Origin: Gemmatimonadota bacterium
GTDB taxonomy: Bacteria; Gemmatimonadota; Gemmatimonadetes; Gemmatimonadales; GWC2-71-9
DNA: 51,232 nt
Direction of reading: 5' to 3'
Assembly (NCBI GenBank): GCA_011390645.1
Contig: JAABRY010000011.1
Coordinates: forward strand, 1 to 51,232
Shown here: one piece after another, positions 16,992 through 51,232 of the stretch
Numbering within the stretch: position 1 is the first letter of the stretch
Layout of the letters: each line of letters begins with the position of its first letter
The notes under the pieces: generated by a model
Told to the model about the DNA's origin: nothing
Seen by the model: the letters and a program-made list of their open reading frames with translations, nothing else
Databases searched by the model: none
Position numbers and translations under genes: made by a program

Positions 16992-16998
16992 GATCGTC

Positions 16999-19007: not shown

Positions 19008-19051
19008 TGTAAACTGCACGCGACAGTCGCTTGTGTCAAGAGAAACGGACA
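19008..19051 (-). promoter_or_regulatory. Tandem PpsR/CrtJ operators overlapping the bchC promoter
   Basis: TGT-AAACTGCACGCG-ACA (19008-19025) and TGT-CAAGAGAAACGG-ACA (19034-19051), 8 nt apart; TTGACA -35 on the minus strand at 19039-19034. Confidence 0.88.
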
Positions 19052-19093
19052 CCTGACGGCGTGACTGATCCTCCGATGGAGATCAGCCGTCGA

Positions 19094-21090: not shown

Positions 21091-21092
21091 GT

Positions 21093-21890: not shown

Positions 21891-21894
21891 CGGG

Positions 21895-23613
21895 TCACGC
21901 GGCATCACGCGCCAGGGTGGCCACGCGGGTGATCGCAGCGGCATCCGCGATCGGCAATGGGAGGTAGCGCAGGCCCATCGTGTCGGCGATCTCCTGCGCC
22001 ACCGCACTCGGCCGGGGTCCGATGTCGAGCCACGCGCCCTCGACACGGTCCGCTCGGAGCCGTCGCGCCACCCCGAGGGCCTCTGCGTGCGCCACCGGGC
22101 GGCCGCCGGTTCCGGCGCGTGTCACATTGGCGCGACCATCGCTGAGGATCAGCACGACCGGCCTCCCTCCCGCTCGTCGGACCTGCCGCTGCACCTCGGC
22201 AATGCAATCCAGCGCGGCCGCCAGCGGTGTCCCCCCCCCACCGGGAAGGCCGGCGAGCGCGCGTTTGGCCCGGGCCAGCGCACGCGTGGGCGGCAAGACC
22301 ACTTCCGCCCCCGCGCCGCGGAAGGTCACCATCGCGACGGCATCGCGGCGCACATAGCTCGCGGCGAGCAACTGCTCTGCCGCACCCTTCGCTTCGTTGA
22401 GTCGGTTGAGCGCAGTGCTGCCGGAGGCGTCCACCACGAGAATCGTTGTCGTGGCCGACGGCCGCCAGCGCCGCTGGATCCGGAAGTCGTCGGGCCGTAC
22501 GGCCAGCGCACCGCCGCCCGGCGCGGCGCCCCGCAACCGCTGCCACGGCACGGCCGCGCGAATCGTTGCCAGCAGGTCAAGTCGTGCGCCACGCCGCGGA
22601 TCGCCGCGCCGGGTGCCCACCCGACGACCGCGAGGCCCCTCGGTGGATGCGTCGCCCTGTCTCCCCCCCCCACGCGCACCGGCGGCCCCAGCCGCAAGGA
22701 GCGCCAGGAGGTCGGGGGGAATGGCCGCCGTCGCGGCGTCCACGACGCGCTCTGCCAGCTCGCGCTCTTCCTCGGCGCCGGGCGGCTCCGCCGCCTGGTC
22801 CGACTCCGACGAGGGGGGGGGAGGTTCCGGCGGCGGGGGCGCCTCGTCCTCCGGCGGCAGCGGCAGCCGGGTGGCCCGTGGCCCGAGGACCAGCGCCGCG
22901 GCGGCGGCGAGGTCGTCGCCGTTGGCCAGGTCGCGGCCCGCAAGCGCGGCATGCGCACGCGCAGCCCGCATGGCAAAGCTTGCCGCTCGCAACGACGCCA
23001 CCCCAAGGGAGGCGGCGGCCGCGACCAGCGCGGACACGGCGTCGGGTGGCAGGTGCACCCCGGGCAGACGCTCTCGCGCCGCGGCCACCTCACCAATGGA
23101 CGGCGCATCCGCCACGGGATCTGCGGCGCCGGGGGGAAGGCGGAGATCGAATGCGACGCGATCGGCCAGTGACGCCGCAACTGACGGCTCATCGGGCTCC
23201 GCTTCGTCCAGCAGGAGAAGCGCGCACGCGGCGGGGCGCACGGCACTGACCCCGTCGCGCTCGGTACGCACCGAACGGGTGTCCATCACCTGCGTCAACA
23301 GCCCCACGGCCTCGGTCGAGAGCCGCTCGGCCATGGGGATGACCAGGGCGCCCTCATGCGCGAGCGCGGGAAGCCCGGGTTCAAGCACCGGGCGACCAGT
23401 CACCAGCGTGGCCGACAGGTCGAGTCCCCCCCCCAATCGTTCGGCCGCGATCCCGGGAGGGACGCGGCGCACCCGGTGCGGCGCGGCCAGTCGTGAGGTG
23501 ACGGCATGGACCCACGCCCGGGCCGCCGGCGTGTGCCCCCCCCGAAGCACGGCGCCGCCGAGCCCCACGGGATCGACGGCGAGGAGGCCCGCGGCGAGGC
23601 CGAGCGAGGTCAC
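21895..23613 (-). CDS. bchD: Magnesium chelatase subunit D
   Basis: [31 protein letters not shown], Pro/Glu linker, v[31 protein letters not shown]; GTGA overlap with bchI. Confidence 0.95.
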
Positions 23614-24653
23614 GCCGCGGCAGTGGGCGCGGGGAGCGTGGCCAGGGCACGGCCGACGCGTGCGCCCGCCGTCGCCTCGTCGAGCGGATCGCGGCGGAGT
23701 CGATGCCGGAGCGCCAGCGGTGCAACGCGCGCGAGCAGCGCATCGTCCGGCTCCGCAATGCCATCCAGCGCGGCCAGCGCGCGCATCGCGCGGAAGAGGG
23801 TCAACTCGCCCCGGAGGCCATCGGTGCCCAGCGCCACGCACAGCGCACTCGCGCGCTCGAGCAACGGCATCGGAAGTTCGACCAAGGGCAAACGGGCTCG
23901 CGCTGTGCGCACCTGATCCTGCAGCGCCGCGTCGGCCGCATGCCACAGCGCGGCGAACCCCTCCGGATCGCGATCGAACGCATCGCGACGCCGCACGATC
24001 TCGATCCGCTCTGCCACCTCCGCGGGCGTGCTCACCTCCACCGCGAGCCCGAACCGATCGAGCAACTGGGGCCGCAGATCGCCTTCTTCGGGATTGCCGG
24101 AACCGACGAGCACGAAGCGCGCAGGGTGACGCAGCGACAGTCCTTCACGCTCGACGACGTTCTCCCCACTGGCTGCCACGTCAAGCAGGAGGTCCACGAG
24201 GTGGTCCTCCAGCAGGTTCACCTCATCGATATAGAGGAAGCCGCGGTGCGCACGGGCCAGCAAGCCGGGTTCAAAGACCTTCTCACCGCGTGTCAGGGCC
24301 CGTTCAAGATCGAGTGCGCCGACGATGCGGTCCTCGGTGGCCCCGAGCGGCAGGTCCACGACGGGTACCGGACGCTCGATCGTCGGGATCGCCTCACCCT
24401 CGGCATGGCGCCGGCGACAGCCCTCGCACCACTCACCCTGCCCTGCAGCCGGATCGCACCCGAACGCGCATCCTGCGTGGGCGGGAAGCGTCGGGAGCAG
24501 TGCCGGCAGGGCGCGCACGGCCGTCGACTTTCCCGTCCCGCGATCACCGAACACCATGACACCACCAAGCGCCGGCTCCACTGCGGTGAGCAGGAGAGCC
24601 AGTTTCATCTCGTCCTGGCCGACGATCGCGCTAAAGGGATAGACTATTCGCAT
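23610..24653 (-). CDS. bchI: Magnesium chelatase ATPase subunit I
   Basis: [74 protein letters not shown]; start ATG 24653. Confidence 0.98.
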
Positions 24654-38069: not shown

Positions 38070-38201
38070 GCATTCACTCATCGTAACGATTTGGCTTGTG
38101 CCGGGTCCATTTGGGTCCTAGTTTTCCGTATTGCCGACCGGTGCGCCGGTTGTCCCAGTTCCCGGATCGTCGGGGGCCTCCTTTCACCCGCGCGAGGACT
38201 C

Positions 38202-39410
38202 GTGCCAGCCGAAACGTTGCAGACCCCGGTGGCGCTCTTCGACAAGTGCCGACAATTCACCCGGGCGCGGGAGATTCAGGCCGCGGGACTCTACCCCTAC
38301 TTCAAGCCGATCTCCGAGTCCGAGGACACGGTGGTCGTCATCGAGGGGCAGAAGCGGATCATGCTGGGGTCCAACAACTACCTCGGCCTGACCCACCACC
38401 CCCGAGTGCTCGAGGCAGCCACGGCCGCGCTCCATCGCTACGGCTCCGGCTGCACGGGCTCGCGTTTCCTGAACGGTTCGCTGGACCTGCACGAACAGCT
38501 TGAAGCCGCACTGGCGACCTTTCTGGGCAAGGAATCCTGTATCGTCTTCTCGACGGGCTACGGCGCGAACCTCGGGCTGATCTCGGGGCTCGTCGGGCGC
38601 GGAGAGACGGTCTATCTCGACAAGCTCGATCATGCGTGCATCGTGGATGGCGCCAAGCTCTCGCACGGCGAGACGGTGCGATTCAACCACGGTGACCTCG
38701 TCGGGCTCGCGCGCAAACTGGAAGCCAACACCACCGGCAAGGGCATGATGATCGCCGTGGATGGTGTGTACTCGATGGAAGGCGACATCGCCGACATCCC
38801 CGAACTGGTGCGCATCGCGAAGAAGTTCGGCGCCGCCCTCGCGGTGGACGATGCCCACGCACTGGGTGTGCTCGGCCCCAATGGAGAGGGCACCGGAGCA
38901 CACTTCGGGATGCAGTCCGAAGTGGACATCATCGCCGGCACCTTCTCGAAGTCGCTCGCGTCCGTCGGTGGTTTCGTGGCGGCAGACGAGTCGGTGATTC
39001 ACTTCCTCAAGCACCACTCGCGGCCGTTCATCTTCACCGCATCGCTGCCACCCGCCAACACGGCCGGCGTCCTGGCGGCCCTTGAAGTGCTCCAGGCCGA
39101 ACCGGAGCGGCGGGACTCGCTCTGGACCAATGCGCGGCGCCTGCAGCAGGGCTTCACCTCGTTGGGCTTTGACATCGGTCCGACGGAGACACCGATCGTG
39201 CCAGTGCTCATCGGCCCCCTCGAGACGACCTTCGTCTTCTGGCGCAAGCTCTATGATGCTGGTGTCTTCACCAATCCGGTGGTGCCGCCTGCGGTGCCAC
39301 CCTCGCAGTGCCGCTTGCGGACCAGCGTGATGGCGACGCATACCGCCGACCAGATCGACTTCGCGCTCGAAGCCTTCGGCCGAATCGGCAAGGAGCTGGG
39401 GGTCATCTGA
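38202..39410 (+). CDS. spt: Serine palmitoyltransferase-like alpha-oxoamine synthase (PLP)
   Basis: GLYPYF, MLGSNNYLGLT, GSGCTGSRFLNG, DHACIVDG, DGVYSMEGD, DDAH, GTFSKSLASVGG, FIFTASLPP; GAGGA SD before GTG 38202; operon context favours Spt over BioF/Kbl. Confidence 0.8.
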   Translation: MPAETLQTPVALFDKCRQFTRAREIQAAGLYPYFKPISESEDTVVVIEGQKRIMLGSNNYLGLTHHPRVLEAATAALHRYGSGCTGSRFLNGSLDLHEQLEAALATFLGKESCIVFSTGYGANLGLISGLVGRGETVYLDKLDHACIVDGAKLSHGETVRFNHGDLVGLARKLEANTTGKGMMIAVDGVYSMEGDIADIPELVRIAKKFGAALAVDDAHALGVLGPNGEGTGAHFGMQSEVDIIAGTFSKSLASVGGFVAADESVIHFLKHHSRPFIFTASLPPANTAGVLAALEVLQAEPERRDSLWTNARRLQQGFTSLGFDIGPTETPIVPVLIGPLETTFVFWRKLYDAGVFTNPVVPPAVPPSQCRLRTSVMATHTADQIDFALEAFGRIGKELGVI

Positions 39411-40540
39411 CCACCCCGGTCGTCCGGCGCGTCGCCTCCCCAGCCGACCTCGCCCGCTTCATCGACCTGCCGTACCGACTGCACCGGCGGGACCCGACCT
39501 GGGTCCCGCCGCTTCGCGCCGAAGTGCGCAAGCTGCTCGACCGCACCAAGAACCCTTTCTTCGAACATGGTGAGGCGGACTACTTCCTCGCTGAGCGCAA
39601 CGGAGAGATCGTCGGACGCATCGCCGCGATCTCCAATCGCCTGCACAACGAGCGACATCACGACCGCGTCGGCTTCTTCGGCTTTTTCGAGTGCATCAAC
39701 GACTTTCCCGTCGCCCGGGCGCTGCTCGATACGGCCAGTGCCTGGGTGAAGGAGCGCGGCTTCGACACGCTGCGCGGGCCGATGTCCTTCTCGGTCAACG
39801 ACGAGTGCGGCTTGCTGGTCGACGGTTTCGAGACCCCGAACACCATCATGATGCCGCACAACCCACCCTACTATCTGCCCCTCCTCGAGACGGCCGGCTT
39901 CACCAAGGCGAAGGACCTGATCTGCCTGCAGGGTGGCTCGTTGGACGGGCCGGTCCCCGCACCGGAGCGCACCGAGCGCGCGGTGAAGCTGATCCTTGAC
40001 CGCTATGGCATCACGATGCGGCCGCTCGACAAGCGACACTTCCAGGCGGAAGTGGAGCGGGTCAAGCAGCTCTACAACGCGGGGTGGGAAGACAACTGGG
40101 GCTTCGTCCCGATGACCGACGCGGAAATCGACCATCTGGCCGAAGGCTTCAAGCCCGTCGTGATTCCGGAGTTGGTGCCGTTCGTCGAGAAAGACGGCGT
40201 GCCGATCGGCTTCGGCCTGGCGCTGCCTGACCTGAACGAGGCGCTGCGCACGAACCGCAACGGCGCCCTGTTCCCCGCAGCGCTCACGATGCTCTGGAAG
40301 CTCAAGACCCGGAAGATCACGCGGGCGCGCATCCTGTTGCTCGGCATCCTGCCCGAGTGGCGCGGCAAGGGAATCGATGCGGCGCTCTATCACTGGATCT
40401 GGACCAAGGCCGCCGAGCGCGGCATCGGTTGGGGCGAGGCCGGCTGGTTGCTCGAAGACAACGCGGCGATCATCCAGGGGCTCGCCAAGGCACGCTTCAC
40501 GCCCTACAAGACCTACCGCATCCTCGATCGCGCGACATGA
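39407..40540 (+). CDS. GNAT-fold acyltransferase, bacterial ceramide synthase-like
   Basis: FIDLPYRL..DPTWVPPL, KNPFFEH, VGRIAAI, GFFGFFECIND, LRGP, ECGLLVDGF, MMPHNPPYY, NWGFVPM, LGILPEWRGKG, WLLEDN; probable CTG start overlapping the spt stop. Confidence 0.75.
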   Translation: MTTPVVRRVASPADLARFIDLPYRLHRRDPTWVPPLRAEVRKLLDRTKNPFFEHGEADYFLAERNGEIVGRIAAISNRLHNERHHDRVGFFGFFECINDFPVARALLDTASAWVKERGFDTLRGPMSFSVNDECGLLVDGFETPNTIMMPHNPPYYLPLLETAGFTKAKDLICLQGGSLDGPVPAPERTERAVKLILDRYGITMRPLDKRHFQAEVERVKQLYNAGWEDNWGFVPMTDAEIDHLAEGFKPVVIPELVPFVEKDGVPIGFGLALPDLNEALRTNRNGALFPAALTMLWKLKTRKITRARILLLGILPEWRGKGIDAALYHWIWTKAAERGIGWGEAGWLLEDNAAIIQGLAKARFTPYKTYRILDRAT

Positions 40541-41511
40541 GGGCGCTGGTGACCGGTGCGACCGGCTTCGTGGGCAGTCATGTCGTCGATCGCCTGCTGG
40601 AGCGCGGCCATGAGGTGGTCGCGCTGATTCGCTCACCCGCGAAGGCGCAGGGTCTCCAGGAGCGTGGCGTACAGCTTGTCCGCGGTGATCTCGGCGACAT
40701 CCCTGCGCTCACCACGGCGGCCGACGGTGTCGACGTCGTGTACCATGTCGCGGCCCTTACCGGCGCGGTCGATGAAGCGGAATTCCTGCAGGCCAACCGC
40801 GAGGGAACGGCCAACGTCGTCCGCGCTGCTCGCGCCGGGGGGGGGGATCCGCGCCTCGTGCTGATCTCGTCCATGGCGGCCGGTGGACCAGCCGAGCGCG
40901 GGCGCCCGCGGCAGGGCGCGGGTGAGGATCGCCCCGTCACCATGTACGGCCGCAGCAAGCTGGCCAGTGAAGTCGTCGTGCGGGAACAGCCGCTCCCATG
41001 GACGATCCTCCGCCCGCCAACCATCTACGGCCCGCGCGATCGCGACAACTTCATTGCCATCTTCAAGGCAGCCCGGAGCGGCTTCAGCCCGGTCTTCGGC
41101 GACGGCTCCCAGCAACTCTCGATGGTGCACGTGGACGACCTCGCCGAGGCCATCCTCCTGGCTGGTGAGTCGCCCGCAGTCCTCGGCGGGACCTACTACA
41201 CCAATCACCCCGAGGTCCTGACATCGGCGGAACTGGTCGAGCATGTCGGCCGTGCGCTCGGGCGCTCGGTCCGCCTCGTCCCGCTCCCGGAGTGGCTCAC
41301 CCGCTCCGCGCTCACCGTCACCGGGGCATGGGCCGCAGCCTTTCGCCAGCGCACCATCCTGCGCGCCGACAAGGCGAACGAGTTCTACCAAGCCGCCTGG
41401 ACAGGCGATCCGGCCCCATTCATCGCCGCGACCGGATGGACTCCGCGCTTCGATGCCAGGACCGGTCTCGCCCACACGGCGGAGTGGTACCGGACGGCGG
41501 GATGGCTCTGA
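40537..41511 (+). CDS. NAD-dependent epimerase/dehydratase (extended SDR); candidate ceramide or 3-ketosphinganine reductase
   Basis: LVTGATGFVG, YHVAA, ISSMAA, YGRSK catalytic motif, RPPTIYGPRD; ATGA overlap. Confidence 0.85.
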   Translation: MRALVTGATGFVGSHVVDRLLERGHEVVALIRSPAKAQGLQERGVQLVRGDLGDIPALTTAADGVDVVYHVAALTGAVDEAEFLQANREGTANVVRAARAGGGDPRLVLISSMAAGGPAERGRPRQGAGEDRPVTMYGRSKLASEVVVREQPLPWTILRPPTIYGPRDRDNFIAIFKAARSGFSPVFGDGSQQLSMVHVDDLAEAILLAGESPAVLGGTYYTNHPEVLTSAELVEHVGRALGRSVRLVPLPEWLTRSALTVTGAWAAAFRQRTILRADKANEFYQAAWTGDPAPFIAATGWTPRFDARTGLAHTAEWYRTAGWL

Positions 41512-42383
41512 CACACGCGGGGGGGGGATGGCGGCTGGTCGATCGTCTCCTCGCCGGCTATGGTCTCATCGTAGCGAGCGTGGCGCTGACCCGGCTCGAC
41601 CACCAGGGCGCGGGCAACATTCTCGCCGCGCATCTCGGGCTCGTGCTCCTCGCCTTCCTCGCTGCTCGCGCACCAACCACCGGCCTCAGTGGCGTCCTGC
41701 GCGCCAGCTATCCGGTGTTCATCCTGACGGGGCTGTACGCCTCGCTCGACATCCTGATCGGGCGAGGCGCGCCCACCTGGGATGCACCTTTGCTCGCGCT
41801 CGAGGAATCGATCTTCGGGAACCAACCGGCACGCGACTGGTGGCGGGCCTCACCGTCGGCCTTCTGGTCCACCGTGTTGCACGCGGCCTATTTCAGCTAC
41901 TACTTCATCGTGCCACTGCCGGTCCTCGTGCTCTTGCTCCAACGACGTGGCCGCGAGGTCGAGCCGTATCTCAACGGCGTGGTCGCGACCTTCCTCACCT
42001 GCTACCTGATCTACCTCTTCTTCCCCGTCTCCGGGCCGTACTACCAGTGGCCGCATCCCGACGGCGCGTTCGTGGACAACGCGCCGGCACGGTGGGTGTA
42101 CGCTGCACTCGCGCAGGGCTCATCCTACGGCGCAGCGTTCCCGTCGTCACATGTCGCAGCAACCGTCGCGGCCACCATCGGGGCCTGGGCCGCATCACGC
42201 ACCCTCGGCGTCGTCCTCGCCGTCCCGACACTGCTCCTGACGGTTGGTGTCGTCTACACGCAGATGCACTACGTGGTGGATAGCGCGGCAGGGGTACTGG
42301 TCGGCATCGCCGTACCACTCCTCGTAGCTCGGCACGCGAAAGGGGCGGCCATCGCTGGCCGCCCCTCACTGTCCGACGCGTAG
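41502..42383 (+). CDS. PAP2 superfamily membrane protein, AUR1/IPC-synthase-like
   Basis: DAPLLALEESIFG.QP, AYFSYY, YLIYLFFPVSGPYY, AAFPSSHVA, HYVVD. Confidence 0.8.
   Translation: MALTHAGGGWRLVDRLLAGYGLIVASVALTRLDHQGAGNILAAHLGLVLLAFLAARAPTTGLSGVLRASYPVFILTGLYASLDILIGRGAPTWDAPLLALEESIFGNQPARDWWRASPSAFWSTVLHAAYFSYYFIVPLPVLVLLLQRRGREVEPYLNGVVATFLTCYLIYLFFPVSGPYYQWPHPDGAFVDNAPARWVYAALAQGSSYGAAFPSSHVAATVAATIGAWAASRTLGVVLAVPTLLLTVGVVYTQMHYVVDSAAGVLVGIAVPLLVARHAKGAAIAGRPSLSDA
42341..42366 (-). terminator. Stem-loop terminating the blue-copper gene (lies inside the PAP2 3' end)
   Basis: AGGGGCGGCCA-TCGC-TGGCCGCCCCT perfect 11-bp stem with a short T run on the minus strand. Confidence 0.6.
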
Positions 42384-42393: not shown

Positions 42394-42852
42394 TTACTCG
42401 ACGGTGATCGCGCCGACCATGCCCATCGTCTGGTGCGGCAGGCAGAAGAACTTGTACTCGCCCGACGGCACACCCGCGAAGGTGATGGTGATGTTGTCGC
42501 CCTCACCCACCAGCGCGCTGGCGAGCGGACCCTGCTTGTTGGTGATCGCGGCGTCGAGCGCCTCGGCCGAACCCGCCGGGATGCTGTCCGGGTAGAACTG
42601 CACGTTGTGCAAGCCACCCGAGATGCCCTTGAAGATCACCGTGTCACCCGCCTTGATGGTCAGGGCGGCCGGCACATACTTGTACTCCATGCCTTCCTGA
42701 ATCATCTGCACTTCGTGGGTCGTCCCAGTGGTCGCAGCCGCCGGGGCATCAACCACAGGTGCGGCATCCGCGGCCGGAGCCTCAGGAGCCGTCTCACCGC
42801 CACACGCCACCAGCATCATCGCTACACCAGCCACCATCGCCGTCACGCGCAT
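42394..42852 (-). CDS. Plastocyanin/auracyanin-like type-1 copper lipoprotein
   Basis: Lipobox LVAC, Ala/Pro-rich tether, YVPAALTIKAGDTV, HNV, YKFFCLPHQTMGMVGAITVE (His, Cys, His, Met ligands). Confidence 0.93.
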   Translation of the reverse strand: MRVTAMVAGVAMMLVACGGETAPEAPAADAAPVVDAPAAATTGTTHEVQMIQEGMEYKYVPAALTIKAGDTVIFKGISGGLHNVQFYPDSIPAGSAEALDAAITNKQGPLASALVGEGDNITITFAGVPSGEYKFFCLPHQTMGMVGAITVE

Positions 42853-43042
42853 TGTCAGTCAGCCTCTCATCAATGTTGATCCCGCAGCGGCACTGCCCCC
42901 CGGCAGTACCGGTCCAAACTCCTACAGCACAGGAATCTAACGGATTCCTGTCGCAAAGAGTAGCGAATAGCTGACTTATGGCCTGCGTTCCGCTACTATT
43001 GAGCCCGCAACTCGATACCCCATACCCTCGCCCCGGATCCCG

Positions 43043-43801
43043 ATGGCCCCACCCCCCTGCCGCGCCCTCGGTGCTCAATGCCGCAGTTTGAAGGTGGTGG
43101 CCCGCGTGGCTGCGATCGAGGGCAAGGAAGATCATGACGCGACCTGGCTCTTCGGGCATACCGAACGACTCGATTTCGGTCGCACGTTCGAGGACGATGA
43201 CGAGCTCTGGTGCGAGATGACCATCCACGTGCCGTGCCGTCACCTCCGCGACGATCCGGCTGGTGGAAGCAGTTGCCGGGCCCATGGGTACACGGGCAAG
43301 GTCCCCGTCCCCAAGCGGAAGGTTCAGCCCCGACGGCTCGGAGACGATACCTTCCGAATCGTCGAGCATCGTCAACTGGTCGACCGCCACCTGCCGCCGC
43401 CCTCACCACGCCGCCACCCACTCCCGGTGGCCCCCGACGCGAATCCGTGCGCCACGGCACCCTGTCGCACCGCTGATCATACCCGCGGGGCAGCATGCTG
43501 CCGCGACATCCAGGTAGATATCCGCTGCGCCGAGGACGACACCCTGCTCGAATCGCTGCTGCGGCACCGCAAGTCCCCATACCTCTGCAAGGTCGAACGC
43601 GAAGAGGATGCCGGCCTGCTCAACGCCGAGATTATTTCGGCGTGCAGTTACCTTCAAGAGGATCGACGCCATTGTGACCTGCATGGGCGCCAGCGGGCGG
43701 ATGGTCGGCCAGCCAAGCCAGAAATGTGTTCACACTGGCCAGAAAAGAGGACAGGTCTTCACGCCGGGTGTGCGTTCAAGAACCGCCGGATACCGCTGTA
43801 A
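43043..43801 (+). CDS. Cysteine-cluster protein, YkgJ/CxxCxxCC-like
   Basis: PCATAPC...GAACCR...CSYL....HCDLH......KPEMCSHWP; partial similar pattern N-terminally (PCRHL...SCRAH); start uncertain. Confidence 0.65.
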   Translation: MAPPPCRALGAQCRSLKVVARVAAIEGKEDHDATWLFGHTERLDFGRTFEDDDELWCEMTIHVPCRHLRDDPAGGSSCRAHGYTGKVPVPKRKVQPRRLGDDTFRIVEHRQLVDRHLPPPSPRRHPLPVAPDANPCATAPCRTADHTRGAACCRDIQVDIRCAEDDTLLESLLRHRKSPYLCKVEREEDAGLLNAEIISACSYLQEDRRHCDLHGRQRADGRPAKPEMCSHWPEKRTGLHAGCAFKNRRIPL

Positions 43802-43894
43802 GTAGTTGCTCGACAGCAACTTAGACCATGGTGTGCAAGTTCGGCCCGGGCTGTGCGTCTTATAGGGGTCGCACCCATGCCTTGGAGGGCATTG

Positions 43895-44419
43895 ATGGCG
43901 TTCGACCTCGAAGGGCTCTATCGCTCCAGTTATGATGCCGTGGTTCGCTTCCTCTACCGCAAGGTGTGGGACGCTGATCGCGCCGAGGACTTGGCGCAGG
44001 AAGTCTTCATGCGGGCGATGCATCACCAGCCGGAAAAGCCCAGGTCGTGGGTCTTCGCCGTGGCCGCGAACATCGCCCGCGACGAGGCCCGGTCAGCAAT
44101 CCGCCGACGCAAGCACCTGACCCTGCTCACCCATGAGCCGATCGCGCACCCAGCGCCGCTGAGTGACGTCAGTGAGGATCTGGAGCGGCAGGAGCAGGAG
44201 GCCGAGGTCAAGCGGGCCCTTGCGACCCTGTCACCGCGAGATCGTGAGGTCCTGCTCCTGTGGGACGCCGGACTCGCTTACCCTGAGATTGCCGCCCAGA
44301 CCGGGCTGGCGGTCGGTGCGGTCGGGACAACCCTGGCGCGAGCACGCAAGCGCCTGGTGCTGGCCCATGACCGCATGGAATCCCTTCGTGAGGAGCAGCG
44401 TGCGGCCGCATCTGCCTGA
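43895..44419 (+). CDS. ECF sigma-70 factor
   Basis: AEDLAQEVF, SWVFAVAANIARD, LSPRDREVLLL, YPEIA, VGTTLARARKRL; GGAGG SD. Confidence 0.95.
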   Translation: MAFDLEGLYRSSYDAVVRFLYRKVWDADRAEDLAQEVFMRAMHHQPEKPRSWVFAVAANIARDEARSAIRRRKHLTLLTHEPIAHPAPLSDVSEDLERQEQEAEVKRALATLSPRDREVLLLWDAGLAYPEIAAQTGLAVGAVGTTLARARKRLVLAHDRMESLREEQRAAASA

Positions 44420-45356
44420 AGAGGAGCTTCACGGCTTTGCTGATAGTGCGCTGTCACCCGCACAGCGCGCGGAGGTCGCCGAGCACCTGCTGGCCTGTCT
44501 GATCTGTCGAGCAGGCTTGGCCGAGGCGGAGGCTCTCCGCGCGCGTGCATCAGCGCTCCTGGAGCTGGCAGCACCTCCGCGTGCCATCGTCCCACCGCAG
44601 GTCAACCGACGTCAGCGCCCGCGCGGCGGCCCTCGCCTGGGCCGCATGGCGGCCGCGGCCGTTCTGGTGGTCGGTACCGGTGCCTTCACGCTGCTCCAGG
44701 TGCCCTTCGGCACGACGGGGTCGTCCGCGCTCCCGCCTCGCTTGGCAACGGCATCAGTCGCCCCGGCGCTCCTGGCCGGGTCGACACAAGAGATCGCAGT
44801 GACGAGCGAATTTCTGGCAGATCAGGATCTCGCTCGCGCACTTCGCTCTACCCGCACCTTGACGCTCGCCTCGCGCGCTGCGATGACACCGCGCGTGGTC
44901 ACCCCGATGTTGCCGGTCACGAATGTCAGCGGACGGCCGCTCCGCGCCGTCGATCCGATGACGGCCGTGGACCCTGCCGATGGCTGGGTGTCGACCCCGT
45001 GGGCTGAGGCCCGCCGAGCCACGCGCGGCGCTATCGCCCACCTGGCTGGCTACCCCGTTGGCGCCGTTCGCCTGCGCGAGAGTTCACGCGGTGGCCGACC
45101 CACCGCGATGGTGCGTCAGCTCCTCCCCGACGGCCGCGCATTCTGGGTGATCGAGGGGGCCGCAGAGGAAATTCAGGGGCTCACCCAGCTCTTCGAAGCC
45201 AGCGGTATCTCGATGAGTACCCTGCTCCGCGCGCGCCCGGATTACCTCGGCACCGACGAAGCCCCGATCCGGACCATTCGAATGGTCGCCGTGGCGTCGT
45301 ACCTGCCGGTGGATTCGTTGAATGCGATGGCGGCGGATCGGTTGCGGTTGGAGTAG
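44400..45356 (+). CDS. Zinc-finger (zf-HC2/ZAS) anti-sigma factor
   Basis: HLPEEEL..FAD..LS......VAEHLLACLICR (HxxxCxxC), one TM helix, extracytoplasmic C-terminus; overlaps the sigma 3' end. Confidence 0.88.
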   Translation: MRPHLPEEELHGFADSALSPAQRAEVAEHLLACLICRAGLAEAEALRARASALLELAAPPRAIVPPQVNRRQRPRGGPRLGRMAAAAVLVVGTGAFTLLQVPFGTTGSSALPPRLATASVAPALLAGSTQEIAVTSEFLADQDLARALRSTRTLTLASRAAMTPRVVTPMLPVTNVSGRPLRAVDPMTAVDPADGWVSTPWAEARRATRGAIAHLAGYPVGAVRLRESSRGGRPTAMVRQLLPDGRAFWVIEGAAEEIQGLTQLFEASGISMSTLLRARPDYLGTDEAPIRTIRMVAVASYLPVDSLNAMAADRLRLE

Positions 45357-45480
45357 GTCGTAGGTCGTAGGTCGTAAGTCCTAGGCCACAGCAAGACGGG
45401 CCGGTTCCTCATCAAGGAACCGGCCCATTGTGTTCCTACGACCTACGACCTACGACCTACGACTTACGACTTACGACCTA
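45354..45480. repeat. Inverted heptamer arrays TA(G/A)GTCG and CGAC(C/T)TA flanking a hairpin
   Basis: TAGGTCG x3 + TAAGTCC + TAGG (45354-45385); CCTA + CGAC(C/T)TA x6 (45435-45480). Confidence 0.95.
45398..45426. terminator. Hairpin between convergent operons, probable bidirectional terminator
   Basis: GGGCCGGTTCCT-CATCA-AGGAACCGGCCC perfect 12-bp stem. Confidence 0.75.
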
Positions 45481-46752
45481 ATGATGCCCCTGCTCCTTCT
45501 CCAACGTGATCAACGCCAGCCGCGGGGACACCATCGGATAGGTCTTCGCGAACCAGCCATAGCTCAGCAGGAAGAGACCCAGGAAGGCCAGCGTCGGCGC
45601 GAGCTCGGGGAGCCCGAAGAGTGGCGCATTCACCTCGCTCACCGACGGGATCACGAGCAGGTAGCGCTCGAGCCAGAGGGTGCAGAACGAGATCGCGGTG
45701 AAGATCCCGAGCGTGAGCGACGTCCGCTTGGCGCCGACTGACAGCAACCCGGTGAACGGAATGACGAACAACCCGAGGAATACGGCGCCGCCGATCGTGC
45801 GCCACTCGCCCCACAGTCGTGAGAAGACGAAGCCGGTTTCTTCCGGCAGGTTGCCGTACCAGATCACGAGGAACTGGGCCCACATGAGATAGGTCCAGAA
45901 GATCGTGAAGCCGAAGCAGAGCTTGCCGAGATCGTGGCGCTGCTTCCCGCTGACGTACTCCTGCAACCCGACCGCCTTGATGCCATACAGCATCAGGAGG
46001 GCGAGCAGCGTGTGGGCGCCGAGGAATGAGCCCATGAAGTACCAGCCACCGAGCAGGTTGCTGAACCAGTGCGGCTGCAGGGCCATGATCCCGTCGAAGG
46101 CGACCATCGTGAAGACCAGCGAGTAGAGGACCGCATAGATCGGCGCCAGACGGTAAGTCCGCGCGTGGTTCCGATCGGCATCGTAGCCCTGCAGCATCTT
46201 CTCGTACCGAGCCTTGCGCCCGTCAGTCACCTTGTCCTTGGCGAGCGCCACGTCGGGCAGGAGATCGCTCTTGATCAACTGCACCCCGACCCAGTACAGC
46301 ACGAGGAGCCCGATCGCGAGGCGAGTGACCATCCACGGCTTCGAGAGCCACATCGCCTTGCCGGCGGCCAGTCCGTGGAGTTCCTCCTCCATGTGACCGT
46401 AGACGTCGTGGTACCCGAGCGTGAAGATCAGCACGAATCCGATCAGCGAGACCGGAATCATTGCACTCGTCGCCTGCGAGAAGCGGATGATCACCCCGGA
46501 CCACTTGGCGTTGGCGATCTTGTGCACGGCGGTCAGGGCGAGCGAGCCGCCGGTGATGCCGGTCCAGAAGAGCCAGTTCACGTGGAAGGTCTGCCACGCA
46601 CGGTGCGATCCATCACCGAGCAGGGTGAACACGAAGAGCGCCGCACCGACCACGGAGAGCACCAGCCCCGCCGTCATGAAGGTGCTGTAGTTGCCGGCCA
46701 CGCTCTTGGCCGCCAGGCGGTCACGGACCGCAGTGAAATCGACGGCGCCCAT
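45478..46752 (-). CDS. actF: Alternative complex III membrane subunit ActF-like
   Basis: About 10 TM; AKWS..I.R, FDGIMALQPHWFS, HDLGKLCFGFTIFWTYLMWAQFLVIWYGNLPEE; start ATG 46752. Confidence 0.85.
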   Translation of the reverse strand: MGAVDFTAVRDRLAAKSVAGNYSTFMTAGLVLSVVGAALFVFTLLGDGSHRAWQTFHVNWLFWTGITGGSLALTAVHKIANAKWSGVIIRFSQATSAMIPVSLIGFVLIFTLGYHDVYGHMEEELHGLAAGKAMWLSKPWMVTRLAIGLLVLYWVGVQLIKSDLLPDVALAKDKVTDGRKARYEKMLQGYDADRNHARTYRLAPIYAVLYSLVFTMVAFDGIMALQPHWFSNLLGGWYFMGSFLGAHTLLALLMLYGIKAVGLQEYVSGKQRHDLGKLCFGFTIFWTYLMWAQFLVIWYGNLPEETGFVFSRLWGEWRTIGGAVFLGLFVIPFTGLLSVGAKRTSLTLGIFTAISFCTLWLERYLLVIPSVSEVNAPLFGLPELAPTLAFLGLFLLSYGWFAKTYPMVSPRLALITLEKEQGHH

Positions 46753-47357
46753 CAGTTCTGCCCCCCGGTGGTCGCAGCCACGGGCGCGGGCGCCCCGGCC
46801 TGCAGCGAGCGAACGTAGTCCACGACCGCCCAGCGCTCGTCCTGCCGCACGATCTTGTCGCCGTACTGGCCCATCAGGCCGCGACCATAGCGGATGATCC
46901 CGTAGAGGTAGCCATCCGTATAGCCGATGGCCTGCGGCGTAAGCAGCGACGGCGGGTTGAGGTAGCTCTTGAGCGTCCCATCCCCGGCGCCCTGGTATCC
47001 GTGACACATCGCGCAGTAGATGCGATAGAGCTCTTCACCGCGCTCGGCGGGGAGGGTGGTCATCCCCGCCGGCCGCGTGATCGTGTTGGCCACGGCAAAG
47101 TCGAAACCATACTGCAACTGCCGCGGGTTGCCCACCCGGAAGTCACGCTCGCCACCGGTGATCGGGACGATCCCGTCCGGGGTGTCACGTGGGATGTCGG
47201 CCCGCTGGTACGGATGCACCGCCTTCGACAGGATCATGTGATCGAACCAGGCGATGTTGTGCATGAGGTCGTCCGGTGAGGGGACCTCGTTGTACCAGAA
47301 GTTGCACCCGGTCGACCCGGTCGCAAGCACGAAGGCAACAAGGAGCTTACGCGTCAC
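46752..47357 (-). CDS. actE: Alternative complex III monoheme cytochrome c lipoprotein ActE-like
   Basis: Lipobox STGC, RGEELYRIYCAMCHG..GAGDG, TDGYLYGIIRYGRGLM, ERWAVVDYVRSLQ; GTG 47357. Confidence 0.85.
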   Translation of the reverse strand: MTRKLLVAFVLATGSTGCNFWYNEVPSPDDLMHNIAWFDHMILSKAVHPYQRADIPRDTPDGIVPITGGERDFRVGNPRQLQYGFDFAVANTITRPAGMTTLPAERGEELYRIYCAMCHGYQGAGDGTLKSYLNPPSLLTPQAIGYTDGYLYGIIRYGRGLMGQYGDKIVRQDERWAVVDYVRSLQAGAPAPVAATTGGQN

Positions 47358-47856
47358 GGGAGACCTCCACCGAGCCATGCCGTTCAAGGAGCTGCTGCAC
47401 GTCCGCCGCGCGATCCGCGCCGCACGGAACGAACACGCCAATGCGGTCGTCGCTGAAGCGTGGATGGTACGGCCGCCCCGCCAGCGACTTGCGGGCGGAG
47501 AGGATGAAGATGGCCGCGATCGTGGAGATGGCACCGAGCAGAATCGTGAGCTCGAAGCCGATCACGACGAAGGCCGGAATCGCCGCGATCGGCTTGCCGC
47601 CGACCAGGAGCGGCCAATCCCGTGACATCCAGATCGCCAGCGAGAAGCCGGCAGTGGTCCCGGTCACGCCACCGATCAGCGTGAACAACCGCACCGGGGA
47701 GATCGGGTCGCCGATGGCGTCCTCGAGCTCGTGGTTGGGCGCGGCCGAGTAGACGGTGAGGTCGGGGTGACCGCTCGACTTCAACTCGCGAATCGCGTCA
47801 CAGGCGGCGTCGATGTGCTCGAACGAGCCGAGGACGCCAGGCACGTGCTTGGCCAT
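47347..47856 (-). CDS. actD: Alternative complex III subunit ActD (DUF3341)
   Basis: Two TM; WPLLVGGKP, PAFVVIGFELTIL, PRFSDDR. Confidence 0.88.
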   Translation of the reverse strand: MAKHVPGVLGSFEHIDAACDAIRELKSSGHPDLTVYSAAPNHELEDAIGDPISPVRLFTLIGGVTGTTAGFSLAIWMSRDWPLLVGGKPIAAIPAFVVIGFELTILLGAISTIAAIFILSARKSLAGRPYHPRFSDDRIGVFVPCGADRAADVQQLLERHGSVEVSRDA

Positions 47857-47857
47857 C

Positions 47858-49216
47858 TTAGTGCCCCCCCCCGTGGGTCTTCTTGCGCGGCATCGGGATC
47901 ATTTCCTTGATCTCCTGGATCGCCACGATCGGGAAGTTCTTGTAGAACAGCGTGAACCAGAGGCCGAACCAGCCGAACGAGCCGAGCAGGACCAACCAGT
48001 CCGCCCAGGTCGGATTGATCTGGCCCCAGGCGTTCGGCAGGTAGTCGTTGGCGAGCGAGGACACCACGATCACGTAGCGCTCGAACCACATCCCGATGTT
48101 GATGAAGATCGAGATCACGAACAGCGCCGTGAGATTGGTCCGGATCTTCTTGAACCAGAGCAACTGGCTGACGAAGGCGTTGCAGATGATCATCGCCCAC
48201 CCTGCCCACCAGTTCGGCCCGAAGGCGCGACGCCAGAAGGCCGTCTGCTCGTAGGTGCTCCCCGAATACCAGGCGACGAAGTACTCCATCGCGTAGGCAT
48301 AGAAGAGGATCGTGCCGGTGAACAGCGTCAGCTTCGACAGATTGTCGAAGTGGTAGTCGGTGATCATATGCTCGACGCGCAGCATCTTCCGCAAGGGGAT
48401 GAGCAGCGTGAACGTCATCCCGATGCCCGAGTAGATGGCGCCTGCAACGAAGTACGGGGCGAAGATCGTCCCGTGCCAGCCCGGCACGATCGAGACGGCG
48501 AAGTCCCACGAAACGACCGAGTGCACCGAGAGCACGAGCGGCGCGGCAAGGGCGGCGAGGTAGAGGTAGGCACGCGTGTAGTGGCGCCACTGCGAATCTG
48601 CACCGGTCCAGCCAAGCGACAGCGCGCCGTAGAGCTTCTTGCGCCAGCCGCTGACGTGGTCACGCACCGCGGCGATGTCCGGCACCAAGCCGACCATGAG
48701 GAAGGTGCTCGACACGGTGAGGTACGTCGAGATCGCGAAGACGTCCCAGAGCAGCGGTGACTTGAAGTTCGGCCAGAGGTAGCGCGCGTTCGGGTACGGG
48801 ATCAGCCAGTAGAAGATCCACTGCCGGCCAATGTGAATGATCGGGAAGAGCGCCGCCGTCATGACGGCGAAGACCGTCATCGCTTCCGTCGCGCGGTAGA
48901 CGGCGGTGCGCCACGGCGAACGGAAGAGGAAGAGAATCGCCGAGATCAGCGTGCCGGCGTGGCCGATGCCGACCCAGAAGACGAAGGTCGTGATGTAGAC
49001 CGACCACATGATCGGCGGGGCATAACCCGCCAGTCCGAGGCCGTGCTTGAGCAGCAGCGTGACGGTGCCGAGGAGCACCGCGGTGAGGAACGCCATCGTC
49101 CCCACCAGGATGTAGTAGCCGCGCGTCGGCGCCTCGGTGATCGTCCGGACGACATCCCGCGTGACCTCAGCGTGGGTCTGCGTCGGCATGCTCGGATCGT
49201 GCGCGATGACCGCCAT
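47858..49216 (-). CDS. actC: Alternative complex III NrfD/PsrC-type quinol-binding subunit ActC
   Basis: FVFWVGIGHAGTLISAIL, EAMTVFAV, HIGR.W, PNFKSPLLWD, PLVLSVHSVVSWDF, PGWHGTIFAPYFVAGAI, GMWFER. Confidence 0.93.
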   Translation of the reverse strand: MAVIAHDPSMPTQTHAEVTRDVVRTITEAPTRGYYILVGTMAFLTAVLLGTVTLLLKHGLGLAGYAPPIMWSVYITTFVFWVGIGHAGTLISAILFLFRSPWRTAVYRATEAMTVFAVMTAALFPIIHIGRQWIFYWLIPYPNARYLWPNFKSPLLWDVFAISTYLTVSSTFLMVGLVPDIAAVRDHVSGWRKKLYGALSLGWTGADSQWRHYTRAYLYLAALAAPLVLSVHSVVSWDFAVSIVPGWHGTIFAPYFVAGAIYSGIGMTFTLLIPLRKMLRVEHMITDYHFDNLSKLTLFTGTILFYAYAMEYFVAWYSGSTYEQTAFWRRAFGPNWWAGWAMIICNAFVSQLLWFKKIRTNLTALFVISIFINIGMWFERYVIVVSSLANDYLPNAWGQINPTWADWLVLLGSFGWFGLWFTLFYKNFPIVAIQEIKEMIPMPRKKTHGGGH

Positions 49217-49217
49217 C

Positions 49218-51232
49218 TCAGTGTCCCCCGCCATGATCGTCCGCGGCCTTCATGACCGGCTCCTGCGCCACCACCTTGGCAAGGTAGGTGACCGCGGGCC
49301 GGACGTTGATCAGTTCGAGCATGGTGTAGCCGCGGGGATCACGCGCCCACTGCACCACCTTCGCCTCCGGGTCCTTGACGTTGCCGAAGGCCATGGCGTT
49401 CGACGGGCAGGCCTGCACGCAGGCCGGCGTGATTTCGCCGTCGCGGAGCGCCCGATCCTCGAGGCGCGCCGTGTGCTGGGCCCCACGGATCCGCTGCACG
49501 CAGAAGGTGCACTTCTCCATGACACCACGCGCACGCACGGTGACTTCCGGGTTCAGCTGCAGGTTCAGCGGCTCCGGCCACGCCGACTCGTTGTACTTGA
49601 GCCAGTTGTAGTAGCGGACCTTGAACGGGCAGTTGTTGCTGCAATAGCGCGTGCCCACGCACCGGTTGTAGACCTGGCCGTTGAGGCCGTCCGGGGTGTG
49701 GTAGGCGGCATAGACCGGGCAGACCGGCTCGCACGGCGCGTTGTCGCAGTGCTGGCACATGATCGGAGCGAAGCGCGCCTCGATGGGCGCCCCGTCGTGG
49801 CCGCCCTCCCAGTACCGCTCGATGCGCATCCAGCTCATCTCGCGGCCCTTGAAGACCTGGTCTTCACCGACGGTCGGGATGTTGTTCTCGGCGTAGCACG
49901 CCGTGACGCACGCCGAACAGCCGGTGCAACGCGACAGGTCGACCGCCATGCCCCACTTCGGGGTCTCGTCCTTGCCGTACTCGCCGAGGTTCCACTTTTC
50001 CTTCTGCGCCTCGTACCAGCCGTCGATCGCCTCGAGCTCACGCGGCGTGTTGATCTCGTGGGGCTCGCCGCCGGCTGCCTTGTAGGCCTGCTCCGGCGTC
50101 ATCCCCTGCGAGGCAAAGGCGAGCGGCATCTGCTCGATGATGCCGCGACCGAGCTGGCGCGGGTTGCCCTCGGTCTTGGCGACTTGCCGGTACCCGGGCG
50201 TCTTGGCGACCGATACCGTCGTCGCGACGTAGGGGAGGAAACCCTGACCATCCGCGGCGCCAATGAGGTCGAGCGCGTTGACGCCACGTCCCTTGGCGTA
50301 CCGGCCATACTCGGTGTGTCCGAGTCCGAGGGGCATGCCGATCGTGTCTTGCCGGATGCCGTGGTAGACATAGACCTGCGCCTGCACGCTGCCGTGCTGC
50401 GTGGTCAGCTCGATGATCTCGCCCTCGCGCACGTCGAGTCGCTTGGCCGTTTCGGGGTGCAATTCCGCCCACGACTGCCAGGTGATCTTGGTCATCGGGT
50501 CGGGGTTCTCGAGCAACCACGGCTTGTTGGCGCCGCGACCATCGTGATACATGATCGAGGGATACGGCAGGAAGGTGAATTCCGCGGTGCCGTCGAGCGT
50601 CGGGACGGCGGGATCGATCGCCGTGGCCCCGGCAACCAGCTGCGGCTGCGAGATCGTCGGCTCGAGATAGACACCACCGCGCGCGAGCGCAGCGCGCCAG
50701 AATTCGTCGAAGTCTGCCGGCGCCCCGACCTGCCAGGCCGCCTGGAGGCGCGTCTCGAAATTCGGCTCCGCGAAGGCGGTTGCGGTGTCGCCACCGATGG
50801 CCTTGGCGACCTGGAGCAGCACGTCACCGGTGTGCATCCCGGGACGCACCGGGGTCATCACCGGCTGCAGCAGTGAGCGCGCACCCGGACGGGCAAAGAG
50901 GTCGTCCCAGCGCTCGAGCGCATGCAGGTTCGGGAGGATGAGGTCGCAGGCCGCGGCGGTCTCGTCGATCACGTTCGCCGTGCTGACCTTGAAGCCCACC
51001 TTCGCGAAGCTCTCCGCGAAGCGGCCGCTCTTCGGCAGCGCATAGAGCGGGTTCGCCTCGTGCACGAACACCACGTCGTACGCGCCAGAGGACATCCCCA
51101 CGAACAACTCCTGCACCGCGCCGTACCCGCCAGTCGGCGTGGTACCCGCGCCGAACTTCACCGTACTACCGAGGTTGCCGGCCGCCACGTTCGCGAGGTT
51201 GACGGCGCGGCAGAGATCGATGGCGCCACGGT
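49218..51232 (-). CDS. actB: Alternative complex III subunit ActB (molybdopterin-oxidoreductase-like + Fe-S domain), 5' truncated
   Basis: LERWDD, DGRGANKPWLLENPDPMTKITW, DLSRCTGCSACVTACYAENN, CQHCDNAPCEPVCP, YNRCVGTRYCSNNCP, RGVMEKCTFC, ACVQACP; frame open to the window edge. Confidence 0.93.
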   Translation of the reverse strand, partial: RGAIDLCRAVNLANVAAGNLGSTVKFGAGTTPTGGYGAVQELFVGMSSGAYDVVFVHEANPLYALPKSGRFAESFAKVGFKVSTANVIDETAAACDLILPNLHALERWDDLFARPGARSLLQPVMTPVRPGMHTGDVLLQVAKAIGGDTATAFAEPNFETRLQAAWQVGAPADFDEFWRAALARGGVYLEPTISQPQLVAGATAIDPAVPTLDGTAEFTFLPYPSIMYHDGRGANKPWLLENPDPMTKITWQSWAELHPETAKRLDVREGEIIELTTQHGSVQAQVYVYHGIRQDTIGMPLGLGHTEYGRYAKGRGVNALDLIGAADGQGFLPYVATTVSVAKTPGYRQVAKTEGNPRQLGRGIIEQMPLAFASQGMTPEQAYKAAGGEPHEINTPRELEAIDGWYEAQKEKWNLGEYGKDETPKWGMAVDLSRCTGCSACVTACYAENNIPTVGEDQVFKGREMSWMRIERYWEGGHDGAPIEARFAPIMCQHCDNAPCEPVCPVYAAYHTPDGLNGQVYNRCVGTRYCSNNCPFKVRYYNWLKYNESAWPEPLNLQLNPEVTVRARGVMEKCTFCVQRIRGAQHTARLEDRALRDGEITPACVQACPSNAMAFGNVKDPEAKVVQWARDPRGYTMLELINVRPAVTYLAKVVAQEPVMKAADDHGGGH

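What the first reader, a model, noticed from the sequence alone, without database searches (positions are those of the whole stretch)
38202..42383. Compact putative sphingolipid operon: spt - ceramide synthase - reductase - IPC-synthase-like headgroup enzyme
Seen: four genes with overlapping stops and starts. Established: bacterial ceramide synthesis in Caulobacter uses Spt, a GNAT-fold CerS and an epimerase-like reductase CerR; AUR1/IPC synthases are PAP2-fold enzymes that transfer phospho-headgroups to ceramide. Inference: a one-operon route from serine to a phosphosphingolipid in an anoxygenic phototroph of a phylum where I know of no chemical demonstration of sphingolipids. No ACP gene is present in the operon.
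Basis: partly seen in the sequence, partly recalled or inferred. Interest (0 to 1): 0.72.

Follow-up and report, generated by a model that had tools for sequence, protein, structure and literature searches.

The report
Gemmatimonadales ceramide operon with Aur1-like transferase
Four overlapping genes in an uncultured Gemmatimonadales bacterium match the known bacterial ceramide enzymes plus a membrane enzyme shaped like yeast inositol-phosphoceramide synthase, so this family likely makes a phosphosphingolipid; this is a solid but ordinary extension of a known pathway, unrelated to the photosynthesis genes nearby.

Summary
Confirmed: four overlapping genes at 38202-42383. Gene 1 groups with serine palmitoyltransferases (Spt), away from BioF/Kbl. 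Gene 2 is a full-length reciprocal-best homologue of E. coli YghO, the published CerS orthologue. Gene 3 groups with spt-linked reductases (CerR). Gene 4's closest solved fold is yeast Aur1. It keeps the His-His-Asp triad, lacks the phosphatase Lys/Arg residues, and is only distantly related to the Bacteroides BT_1522 family. The genome also encodes inositol-phosphate synthase beside a likely PIP synthase, so inositol-phosphoryl-dihydroceramide is the most likely product (about 0.5); any phosphosphingolipid about 0.7; ceramide about 0.87. No lipid chemistry was possible. spt and cerS occur in 95 of 96 sampled genomes of this family but in only 4-5 of 38 of a sister family. The phototroph angle is incidental: pufLM occurs in 2 of 96. 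New detail: cerS likely starts at a conserved CTG overlapping the spt stop. Bacterial inositol-ceramide synthases are already known, and this scan found the same operon in at least eight other genomes. Modest interest.

The parts
38202..39410 (+). spt: serine palmitoyltransferase-like PLP enzyme, 402 aa, closest in sequence to the Bacteroidetes type; PLP lysine in GTFSK (K250)
   Evidence: Best PDB hits are Spt 8guh/3a2b at 425 bits, against 302 or less for Kbl/AONS and 219 or less for plain BioF. NCBIfam SerpalmtaseCFB is best at 518.5 bits, below its 640 cut-off. It sits in the Spt clade, 100/99 support. Only alpha-oxoamine synthase found in the genome.
39407..40540 (+). bCerS-like tandem-GNAT N-acyltransferase, 377 aa, likely starting at a CTG that overlaps the spt stop
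   Evidence: 34% identity over 377 aa to E. coli YghO, E 7e-73, reciprocal best. YghO is listed as the aca/CC_1154 (CerS) orthologue in PMC9386255. Model pLDDT 90, tandem GNAT fold. Start codon.
40537..41511 (+). CerR-like extended SDR (NAD(P)H) reductase, 324 aa; TGxxGxxG at 6, YxxxK at 137
   Evidence: Pfam Epimerase. Reciprocal best for E. coli Epi (26%, E 4e-25) and Sphingomonas epi/CerR (36%, E 2e-41). Groups with spt-linked reductases apart from 6 genome paralogues, SH-aLRT 99, quick tree.
41502..42383 (+). Aur1/IPC-synthase-like membrane phosphotransferase (PAP2_3), 293 aa; triad H217, H256, D260; active site predicted periplasmic
   Evidence: PF14378. Family profile aligns over positions 15-284 of 298 to Aur1. 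Foldseek top two hits are Aur1, TM 0.65/0.62; Z 17.6 over about 260 residues. Motif counts; positive-inside count; homology to a BT_1522-type protein.
39391..39410 (+). spt-cerS junction: AAGGAG, then CTGA (cerS start within the spt stop); likely translational coupling
   Evidence: CTG in 70, TTG in 6 and another frame in 1 of 77 loci.

Best explanation
This four-gene operon likely makes dihydroceramide by the known bacterial Spt/bCerS/CerR route, and its fourth, Aur1-like enzyme likely then transfers a phospho-head group, most probably phosphoinositol, onto it. Steps: (1) Spt condenses L-serine with acyl-CoA or housekeeping acyl-ACP to 3-ketosphinganine (homology shown; substrate and acyl donor inferred). 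(2) The tandem-GNAT bCerS N-acylates it (homology shown; activity inferred). (3) The SDR reduces the 3-keto group (homology shown; the order of steps 2 and 3 is disputed even in Caulobacter). (4) On the periplasmic face (topology predicted), His256, activated by Asp260, would attack phosphatidylinositol and release diacylglycerol, and His217 would activate the ceramide 1-OH, giving inositol-phosphoryl-dihydroceramide (mechanism carried over from Aur1; donor inferred). Phosphatidylinositol would come from the unlinked PIP-synthase-like + MIPS pair (G000:C295:32566-34544) and an unidentified PIP phosphatase. LpxC is present, so the lipid would sit alongside LPS rather than replace it (inferred).
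For: Spt. CerS. CerR. Gene 4: Aur1 is the only full-length solved match by profile and by fold, while phosphatases match only the C-terminal core. H256 and D260 are in 93 of 93 family members and H217 in 92 of 93; the C1 Lys is in 0 of 93, the C1 Arg in 1 of 93 and the C3 Arg in 0 of 93 (the phosphatase motifs KX6RP and SRX5HX3D are recalled). The profile also aligns full length (E 1e-13 among 7 targets) to a Hymenobacter BT_1522-type protein from an inositol-lipid cluster. Aur1 triad and mechanism: PMC13133130 passages. BT_1522 makes PI-dihydroceramide: PMC9246714 passages. Gene 4 stays next to cerS when the reductase moves upstream (3 f4 genomes). Donor: MIPS and a PIP-synthase-like gene are adjacent in the genome. 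Two f2 genomes without gene 4 in the operon have, in that slot, homologues (30-34%) of the Bacteroides 'alternative' inositol-lipid cluster. One f8 genome has a GT4 glycosyltransferase there. The slot therefore behaves like a head-group slot.
Against: No lipid or enzyme data. Spt scores below the NCBIfam cut-off (518.5 against 640). The Spt clade also holds a Priestia enzyme with no cerS beside it, so clade membership is not proof. Gene 4 is not a member of the BT_1522 family (no NF052609 match). More family members hit an undecaprenyl-PP phosphatase model (55 of 93) than NF052609 (42 of 93), all weakly. Identity to Aur1 is only 16-17%, and LpxE follows at Z 15.9. MIPS is in 190 of 201 phylum genomes, including those without the operon, so it shows availability, not specificity. 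MIPS is not in the operon, unlike BT_1522's cluster. No PgpA-type PIP phosphatase was found (genome 86% complete). Gene 4 is cleanly missing from 6 of 63 operons. The two f2 genomes named above also have gene-4 homologues elsewhere.
Confidence: 0.5

Rival explanations
1. Ceramide core as above, but gene 4 transfers another phospho-head group (phosphoethanolamine, phosphoglycerol or other) from a glycerophospholipid, like a sphingomyelin/CPE synthase.
For: Same fold and triad serve PE in human SMSr (PMC13133130 passage; 8ijq at Z 10.8). Gene 4 lies outside the BT_1522 family and is not linked to MIPS. A PgsA-like gene is in the genome.
Against: Aur1 and the BT_1522 type, both inositol enzymes, are the nearest characterised relatives. 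PI synthesis genes are present.
Confidence: 0.2
2. Ceramide core is real, but gene 4 is a lipid phosphate phosphatase (PIP, ceramide-1-phosphate, lipid A or undecaprenyl-PP) or acts on a non-ceramide lipid.
For: PAP2 superfamily; weak hits to phosphatase models in 55 of 93 members; LpxE Z 15.9; no PgpA found; gene lost in 6 of 63 operons.
Against: The phosphate-binding C1 Lys/Arg and C3 Arg are absent. Phosphatases align over only about 70 profile positions, or 160-190 residues by fold, against about 260 for Aur1. The genome holds ordinary PAP2 phosphatases that keep those motifs.
Confidence: 0.17
3. The Spt-like enzyme uses another amino acid (alanine, glycine, cysteate), so the product is a 1-deoxy or sulfono analogue or another N-acylated aminolipid.
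For: Score below the Spt cut-off. Spt-like enzymes can use alanine (PMC11334938). Branching inside the Spt clade is unresolved.
Against: Cysteate acyltransferase scores 256 bits against 425 for Spt. A conserved head-group transferase implies an acceptor with a 1-OH (inference).
Confidence: 0.1
4. Gene 1 is BioF or Kbl and the cluster is unrelated to sphingolipids.
For: It is the only alpha-oxoamine synthase found in the genome; bioF model 393 bits.
Against: Tree separates it from 2 Kbl and 2 BioF sequences, 100/99. Both neighbours are reciprocal-best CerS and CerR homologues.
Confidence: 0.03

Closest known systems
Caulobacter crescentus / Rhodobacteria ceramide pathway (Spt CC_1162, CerS CC_1154, CerR CC_1164, AcpR, AasR) and its E. 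coli orthologues (spt, acpR, epi, aasR, yghO)
   Same: Three core genes are homologous; reciprocal best to E. coli Spt, Epi and YghO. The Caulobacter proteins themselves could not be fetched.
   Different: No AcpR or clear AasR. Spt is closer in sequence to the Bacteroidetes type. spt and cerS overlap in one operon, whereas PMC11324152 states that cerS always lies in a separate operon; Streptomyces and Rubrobacter loci also have them in tandem. The head-group enzyme is Aur1-like, not the kinase/CDP-phosphoglycerate route.
Bacteroides thetaiotaomicron PI-dihydroceramide synthase BT_1522 (NCBIfam NF052609) and its inositol-lipid cluster
   Same: Full-length homology of the gene-4 family to a BT_1522-type protein, same triad; MIPS and a PIP-synthase-like gene are in the genome.
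   Different: Not a family member. Gene 4 clusters with spt/cerS/cerR, not with the inositol genes. No PgpA-like PIP phosphatase was found.
Yeast IPC synthase Aur1 (PDB 9vj4, 9ivc)
   Same: Best fold match over the whole protein; H217/H256/D260 align with Aur1 H255/H294/D298; no phosphatase C1/C3 basic residues.
   Different: 16-17% identity; no Kei1-like partner gene in the operon; donor and acceptor untested.
Bacteroidetes-type Spt (PDB 8guh, 3a2b; NF047600)
   Same: Best sequence match, 425 bits; shared GSRFLNG, GTFSKS and NPV motifs.
   Different: Below the equivalog cut-off; the Gemmatimonadales sequences form their own branch (100/99) not resolved as sister to Bacteroidetes.

Membership tests
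Serine palmitoyltransferase | Groups with Spt, apart from Kbl and BioF | tested here: met
   20-sequence IQ-TREE, 100/99; only 4 outgroup sequences, one on a long branch
Serine palmitoyltransferase | PLP-site residues (stacking His, DxxH, GTFSK lysine, C-terminal Arg) | tested here: met
   motif columns
Serine palmitoyltransferase | NCBIfam equivalog cut-off | tested here: not met
   NF047600 518.5 < 640; NF047599 422 < 500; all Kbl/BioF models also below cut-off
Serine palmitoyltransferase | Forms 3-ketosphinganine from serine | not testable with these tools
   needs enzyme assay
Bacterial ceramide synthase (bCerS) | Full-length, reciprocal-best homology to a published orthologue; about 380-aa tandem GNAT | tested here: met
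   E. coli YghO 34% over 377 aa; fold
Bacterial ceramide synthase (bCerS) | Direct comparison with Caulobacter CCNA_01212/CC_1154; N-acylation activity | not testable with these tools
   sequence not retrievable; no bCerS model in NCBIfam or PDB hit
CerR | Extended SDR motifs; groups with spt-linked epi/CerR | tested here: met
CerR | Periplasmic location and 3-keto reduction (PMC11087976) | not testable with these tools
   Rossmann motif begins at residue 6, no hydrophobic leader; location unknown
Aur1/IPC-synthase-like phosphotransferases | His-His-Asp triad without phosphatase C1 Lys/Arg and C3 Arg | tested here: met
   93 sequences
Aur1/IPC-synthase-like phosphotransferases | Whole-protein Aur1 fold including the N-terminal helices | tested here: met
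Aur1/IPC-synthase-like phosphotransferases | Uses PI as donor and ceramide as acceptor | not testable with these tools
   donor genes present; specificity untested
BT_1522 family (NF052609) | Model score of 480 bits or more | tested here: not met
   no match in G000; best family member E 2.6e-7
Canonical PAP2 lipid phosphatases | C1 KX6RP and C3 SRX5HX3D (motifs recalled) | tested here: not met
   Lys 0 of 93, C1 Arg 1 of 93, C3 Arg 0 of 93
Rhodobacterial tripartite Spt system | Dedicated AcpR and AasR | tested here: inconclusive
   none in the operon; no AcpR hit and only a partial 30% AasR-like hit in an 86%-complete genome

The most novel reading that the evidence does not exclude
Gene 4 defines a separate bacterial lineage of Aur1-like ceramide phosphotransferases that installs a head group other than inositol (for example a bacterial ceramide-phosphoethanolamine or -phosphoglycerol synthase). 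Phosphosphingolipids would then be a family-wide trait of these uncultured Gemmatimonadales, making them an unrecognised source of environmental sphingolipids, with CerS output set by coupling at a CUG start.
Probability: 0.2. Interest if true: 0.6.

Novelty: new variant of a known kind. Interest (0 to 1): 0.32.

Why it matters
It predicts sphingolipids, probably inositol-phosphoceramide, across a whole family of uncultured bacteria. It also offers a 4.2-kb single-operon route from serine to a complex sphingolipid that is easy to test in E. coli, and a bacterial Aur1-like enzyme with no partner gene in its operon. All enzyme classes and the product class are already known, so the gain is range and gene organisation, not a new mechanism.

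Tried and rejected
Stankeviciute 2022 is not held and the Black Sea supplement could not be read. Either may already list Gemmatimonadota among predicted producers, so 'not in print' is not shown. Paper searches listed no study of sphingolipids in this phylum; 'Gemmatimonad' occurs 0 times in the main text of the five papers searched for it and in PMC9386255. Single-sequence PDB searches of genes 2 and 4 found nothing; the gene 2 profile gave no convincing hit. Gene 4 found nothing in plasmids. The metagenome scan for distant gene-4 relatives returned loci whose Spt is 71-84% identical to the window's, so it gives no independent lineage. The Atlas did not hold the sequences. No RNA holder was listed. 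The promoter scan found 0 sites, and 2 terminator-like sites against 1.6 by chance. A link to phototrophy was rejected. The upstream GTG at 39308 was rejected as the cerS start: it lies 33 codons inside spt and is cut off by an in-frame stop in 13 of 70 CTG loci. PMC11402645 was listed but not read.
Full report
Observation. The four genes are present, intact and overlapping at 38202-39410, 39407-40540, 40537-41511 and 41502-42383. A convergent cupredoxin gene follows 10 nt later and closes the unit. The window is contig C254 of a 2.93-Mb, 86%-complete genome, and relatives' records are named Gemmatimonadales. pufL and pufM are in the window.

Gene 1. The best solved relatives are Spt structures 8guh/3a2b at 425 bits. 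Sphingomonas-type Spt scores about 305, Kbl/AONS 302 or less, cysteate acyltransferase 256 and plain BioF 219 or less. The best NCBIfam model is Bacteroidetes Spt at 518.5 bits, below its cut-off of 640; no model reaches its cut-off. In a 20-sequence tree it falls with E. coli, Sphingomonas and Bacteroidales Spt, apart from two Kbl and two BioF sequences (100/99), and it keeps the PLP-site residues. Caveats: branching inside the clade is unresolved, and the clade includes a Priestia enzyme with no cerS beside it.

Gene 2. It matches E. coli YghO at 34% over 377 aa and is YghO's only hit in the genome. PMC9386255 (passages) lists yghO as the orthologue of Caulobacter CC_1154, the CerS. Sphingomonas, Roseomonas, Aureispira, Streptomyces and Rubrobacter homologues (34-41%) sit near spt or other lipid genes. 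The model (pLDDT 90) has a tandem-GNAT fold. The likely start is the CTG overlapping the spt stop: CTG in 70, TTG in 6 and another frame in 1 of 77 loci. In 13 of the 70 an in-frame stop lies upstream before any ATG/GTG/TTG, and in 10 of those 13 the first such codon downstream falls after the conserved N-terminal helix (my count). The codon is fixed by the last Ile of Spt, and ATA is rare here (280 of 37,746 Ile codons). The database copy of the window's protein is cut to 338 aa.

Gene 3. It is an extended SDR and the best genome hit for the E. coli and Sphingomonas spt-linked epi/CerR proteins. It groups with them apart from six genome paralogues (SH-aLRT 99, quick tree).

Gene 4. It is a PAP2_3 membrane protein. 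A 93-sequence profile aligns to yeast Aur1 over positions 15-284 of 298 (E 1.4e-4). Two phosphatases score better but cover only about 70 positions. The model (pLDDT 94) has two Foldseek hits at E 0.001 or better, both Aur1 (TM 0.65, 0.62). VIA-align gives Aur1 Z 17.6 over about 260 residues (rmsd 4.3-5.4) and LpxE Z 15.9 over 161 (rmsd 2.8). H217, H256 and D260 correspond to the Aur1 triad described in PMC13133130 (passages) and are kept in 92, 93 and 93 of 93 members. The phosphatase C1 Lys, C1 Arg and C3 Arg occur in 0, 1 and 0 of 93 (motifs recalled). Lys/Arg bias puts the catalytic loops outside the cytoplasm. The family is homologous over its length to a BT_1522-type protein from a Hymenobacter inositol cluster but is not in NF052609. 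Against my reading, more members weakly hit an undecaprenyl-PP phosphatase model (55 of 93) than NF052609 (42 of 93).

Donor. The genome has MIPS directly behind a CDP-alcohol phosphotransferase whose best model is PIP synthase (145 bits, cut-off 170). No PgpA-type PIP phosphatase was found. MIPS is in 190 of 201 sampled phylum genomes (one counted genome, G157, is unpublished), so it shows only that PI could be available. The genome has one ACP match and an LpxC.

Distribution. In 201 phylum genomes, spt (E 1e-100 or better) was found in 121, cerS in 133 and gene 4 in 117. For the window's family the counts are 95, 95 and 89 of 96; for sister family f2 4, 5 and 6 of 38; for f7 0, 8 and 1 of 23. 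In 80 close loci the order is kept in 75 of 75, 77 of 77 and 57 of 63 testable cases; the six misses lack gene 4 cleanly. Of 20 further regions that I chose mostly around cerS hits in other families, three f4 genomes move the reductase upstream but keep gene 4 behind cerS, and f5 and f6 keep the window's order. Two f2 genomes have, in that slot, homologues of the Bacteroides 'alternative' inositol-lipid cluster (cluster described in PMC9246714), and one f8 genome has a GT4 glycosyltransferase. These genomes are kin, so the counts are not independent. pufLM is in 5 of 201 genomes, 2 of 96 in the family and 0 of 8 in the genus; the two f2 phototrophs (G103, G136) are not among the spt or cerS matches. 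Phototrophy and the operon are uncoupled.

Mechanism. Serine plus acyl thioester gives 3-ketosphinganine, then N-acylation and reduction give dihydroceramide, then a two-step phospho-histidine transfer of a head group, most likely phosphoinositol from PI. Homology, fold, residues and synteny are shown; every activity is inferred. Odds: ceramide about 0.87, some phosphosphingolipid about 0.7, the inositol form about 0.5.

Literature seen. PMC11334938: passages and section 20 (Spt-like genes in 38 phyla, 40 in all; supplement unreadable). Its preprint: passages. PMC9246714, PMC9386255, PMC11324152, PMC13133130: passages. PMC11651109: passages (marine isolates have PE, PG, DPG and an aminolipid by TLC; no sphingolipid mention). 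PMC11087976: abstract, first results sections and a reference passage. Stankeviciute 2022: not held. Searches listed no sphingolipid study of this phylum, but the unseen tables may already predict it. PMC11324152 says cerS always lies in a separate operon; this operon, and Streptomyces and Rubrobacter loci, are exceptions. The scan's own index shows look-alikes in 28 genomes, and the 8 listed reports reach the same reading; these are not independent evidence.

Verdict. Real and correctly read by the first stage, but built from known enzyme classes and probably making a known lipid class. The single-operon layout, the distinct Aur1-like subfamily and the CUG start make it a modest variant. Interest 0.32.

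Noticed in passing
window 39391-39410; loci L031-L110: cerS appears to start at a conserved CTG overlapping the spt stop (70 of 77 loci; TTG in 6), so gene callers cut it by about 39 aa (338-aa database entries).
   Followed up: yes
window 10498-24653 (- strand): Photosynthesis gene cluster: pufL and pufM confirmed by Pfam; neighbours look like pufC and bch genes (read by eye). pufLM is in none of 8 same-genus genomes and 2 of 96 family genomes, which suggests recent gain or patchy loss.
   Followed up: partly
G000:C295:32566-34544: PIP-synthase-like CDP-alcohol phosphotransferase followed by MIPS. MIPS is in 190 of 201 phylum genomes, so inositol lipids may be phylum-wide; the one isolate description I read lists none.
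   Followed up: partly
L222:3629-8941 and L223:9443-14999: In two f2 genomes spt-cerS-reductase is followed by homologues of the Bacteroides 'alternative' inositol-lipid cluster (NTP transferase or HAD, CDP-alcohol phosphotransferase, a conserved hypothetical), with an inserted class III aminotransferase in L223; possibly an amino-inositol head group.
   Followed up: partly
L227:8503-10690: In an f8 genome cerS is followed by a GT4 glycosyltransferase and an LPG-synthase TM protein: a candidate glycosphingolipid variant.
   Followed up: partly
L157 and L214: A second, differently arranged cluster holds a gene-4 homologue, a reductase and a cerS homologue beside an SDR, an ACP-like gene and (in L214) glycosyltransferase-like genes; no spt in the DNA held.
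   Followed up: no
L123:4766-9292 and L124:4698-10290: Streptomyces and Rubrobacter plasmids carry spt-cerS-reductase in tandem, followed by a condensation-domain protein and an LTA-synthase-family protein respectively: Gram-positive ceramide-like operons.
   Followed up: no
window 6746-8977 and 5006-6742 (- strand): A fused sucrose-phosphate-phosphatase-like HAD + GT20 protein lies next to a sodium:solute symporter: probably compatible-solute synthesis and uptake.
   Followed up: no
window 42394-51232: A cupredoxin gene, an ECF sigma factor with a likely anti-sigma, and an alternative-complex-III-like operon (read by eye) follow the operon; the same neighbours recur in many family loci.
   Followed up: no
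window 38103-38128: A terminator-like hairpin lies between the upstream ABC ATPase gene and spt; the count of such sites is within chance (2 against 1.6).
   Followed up: no
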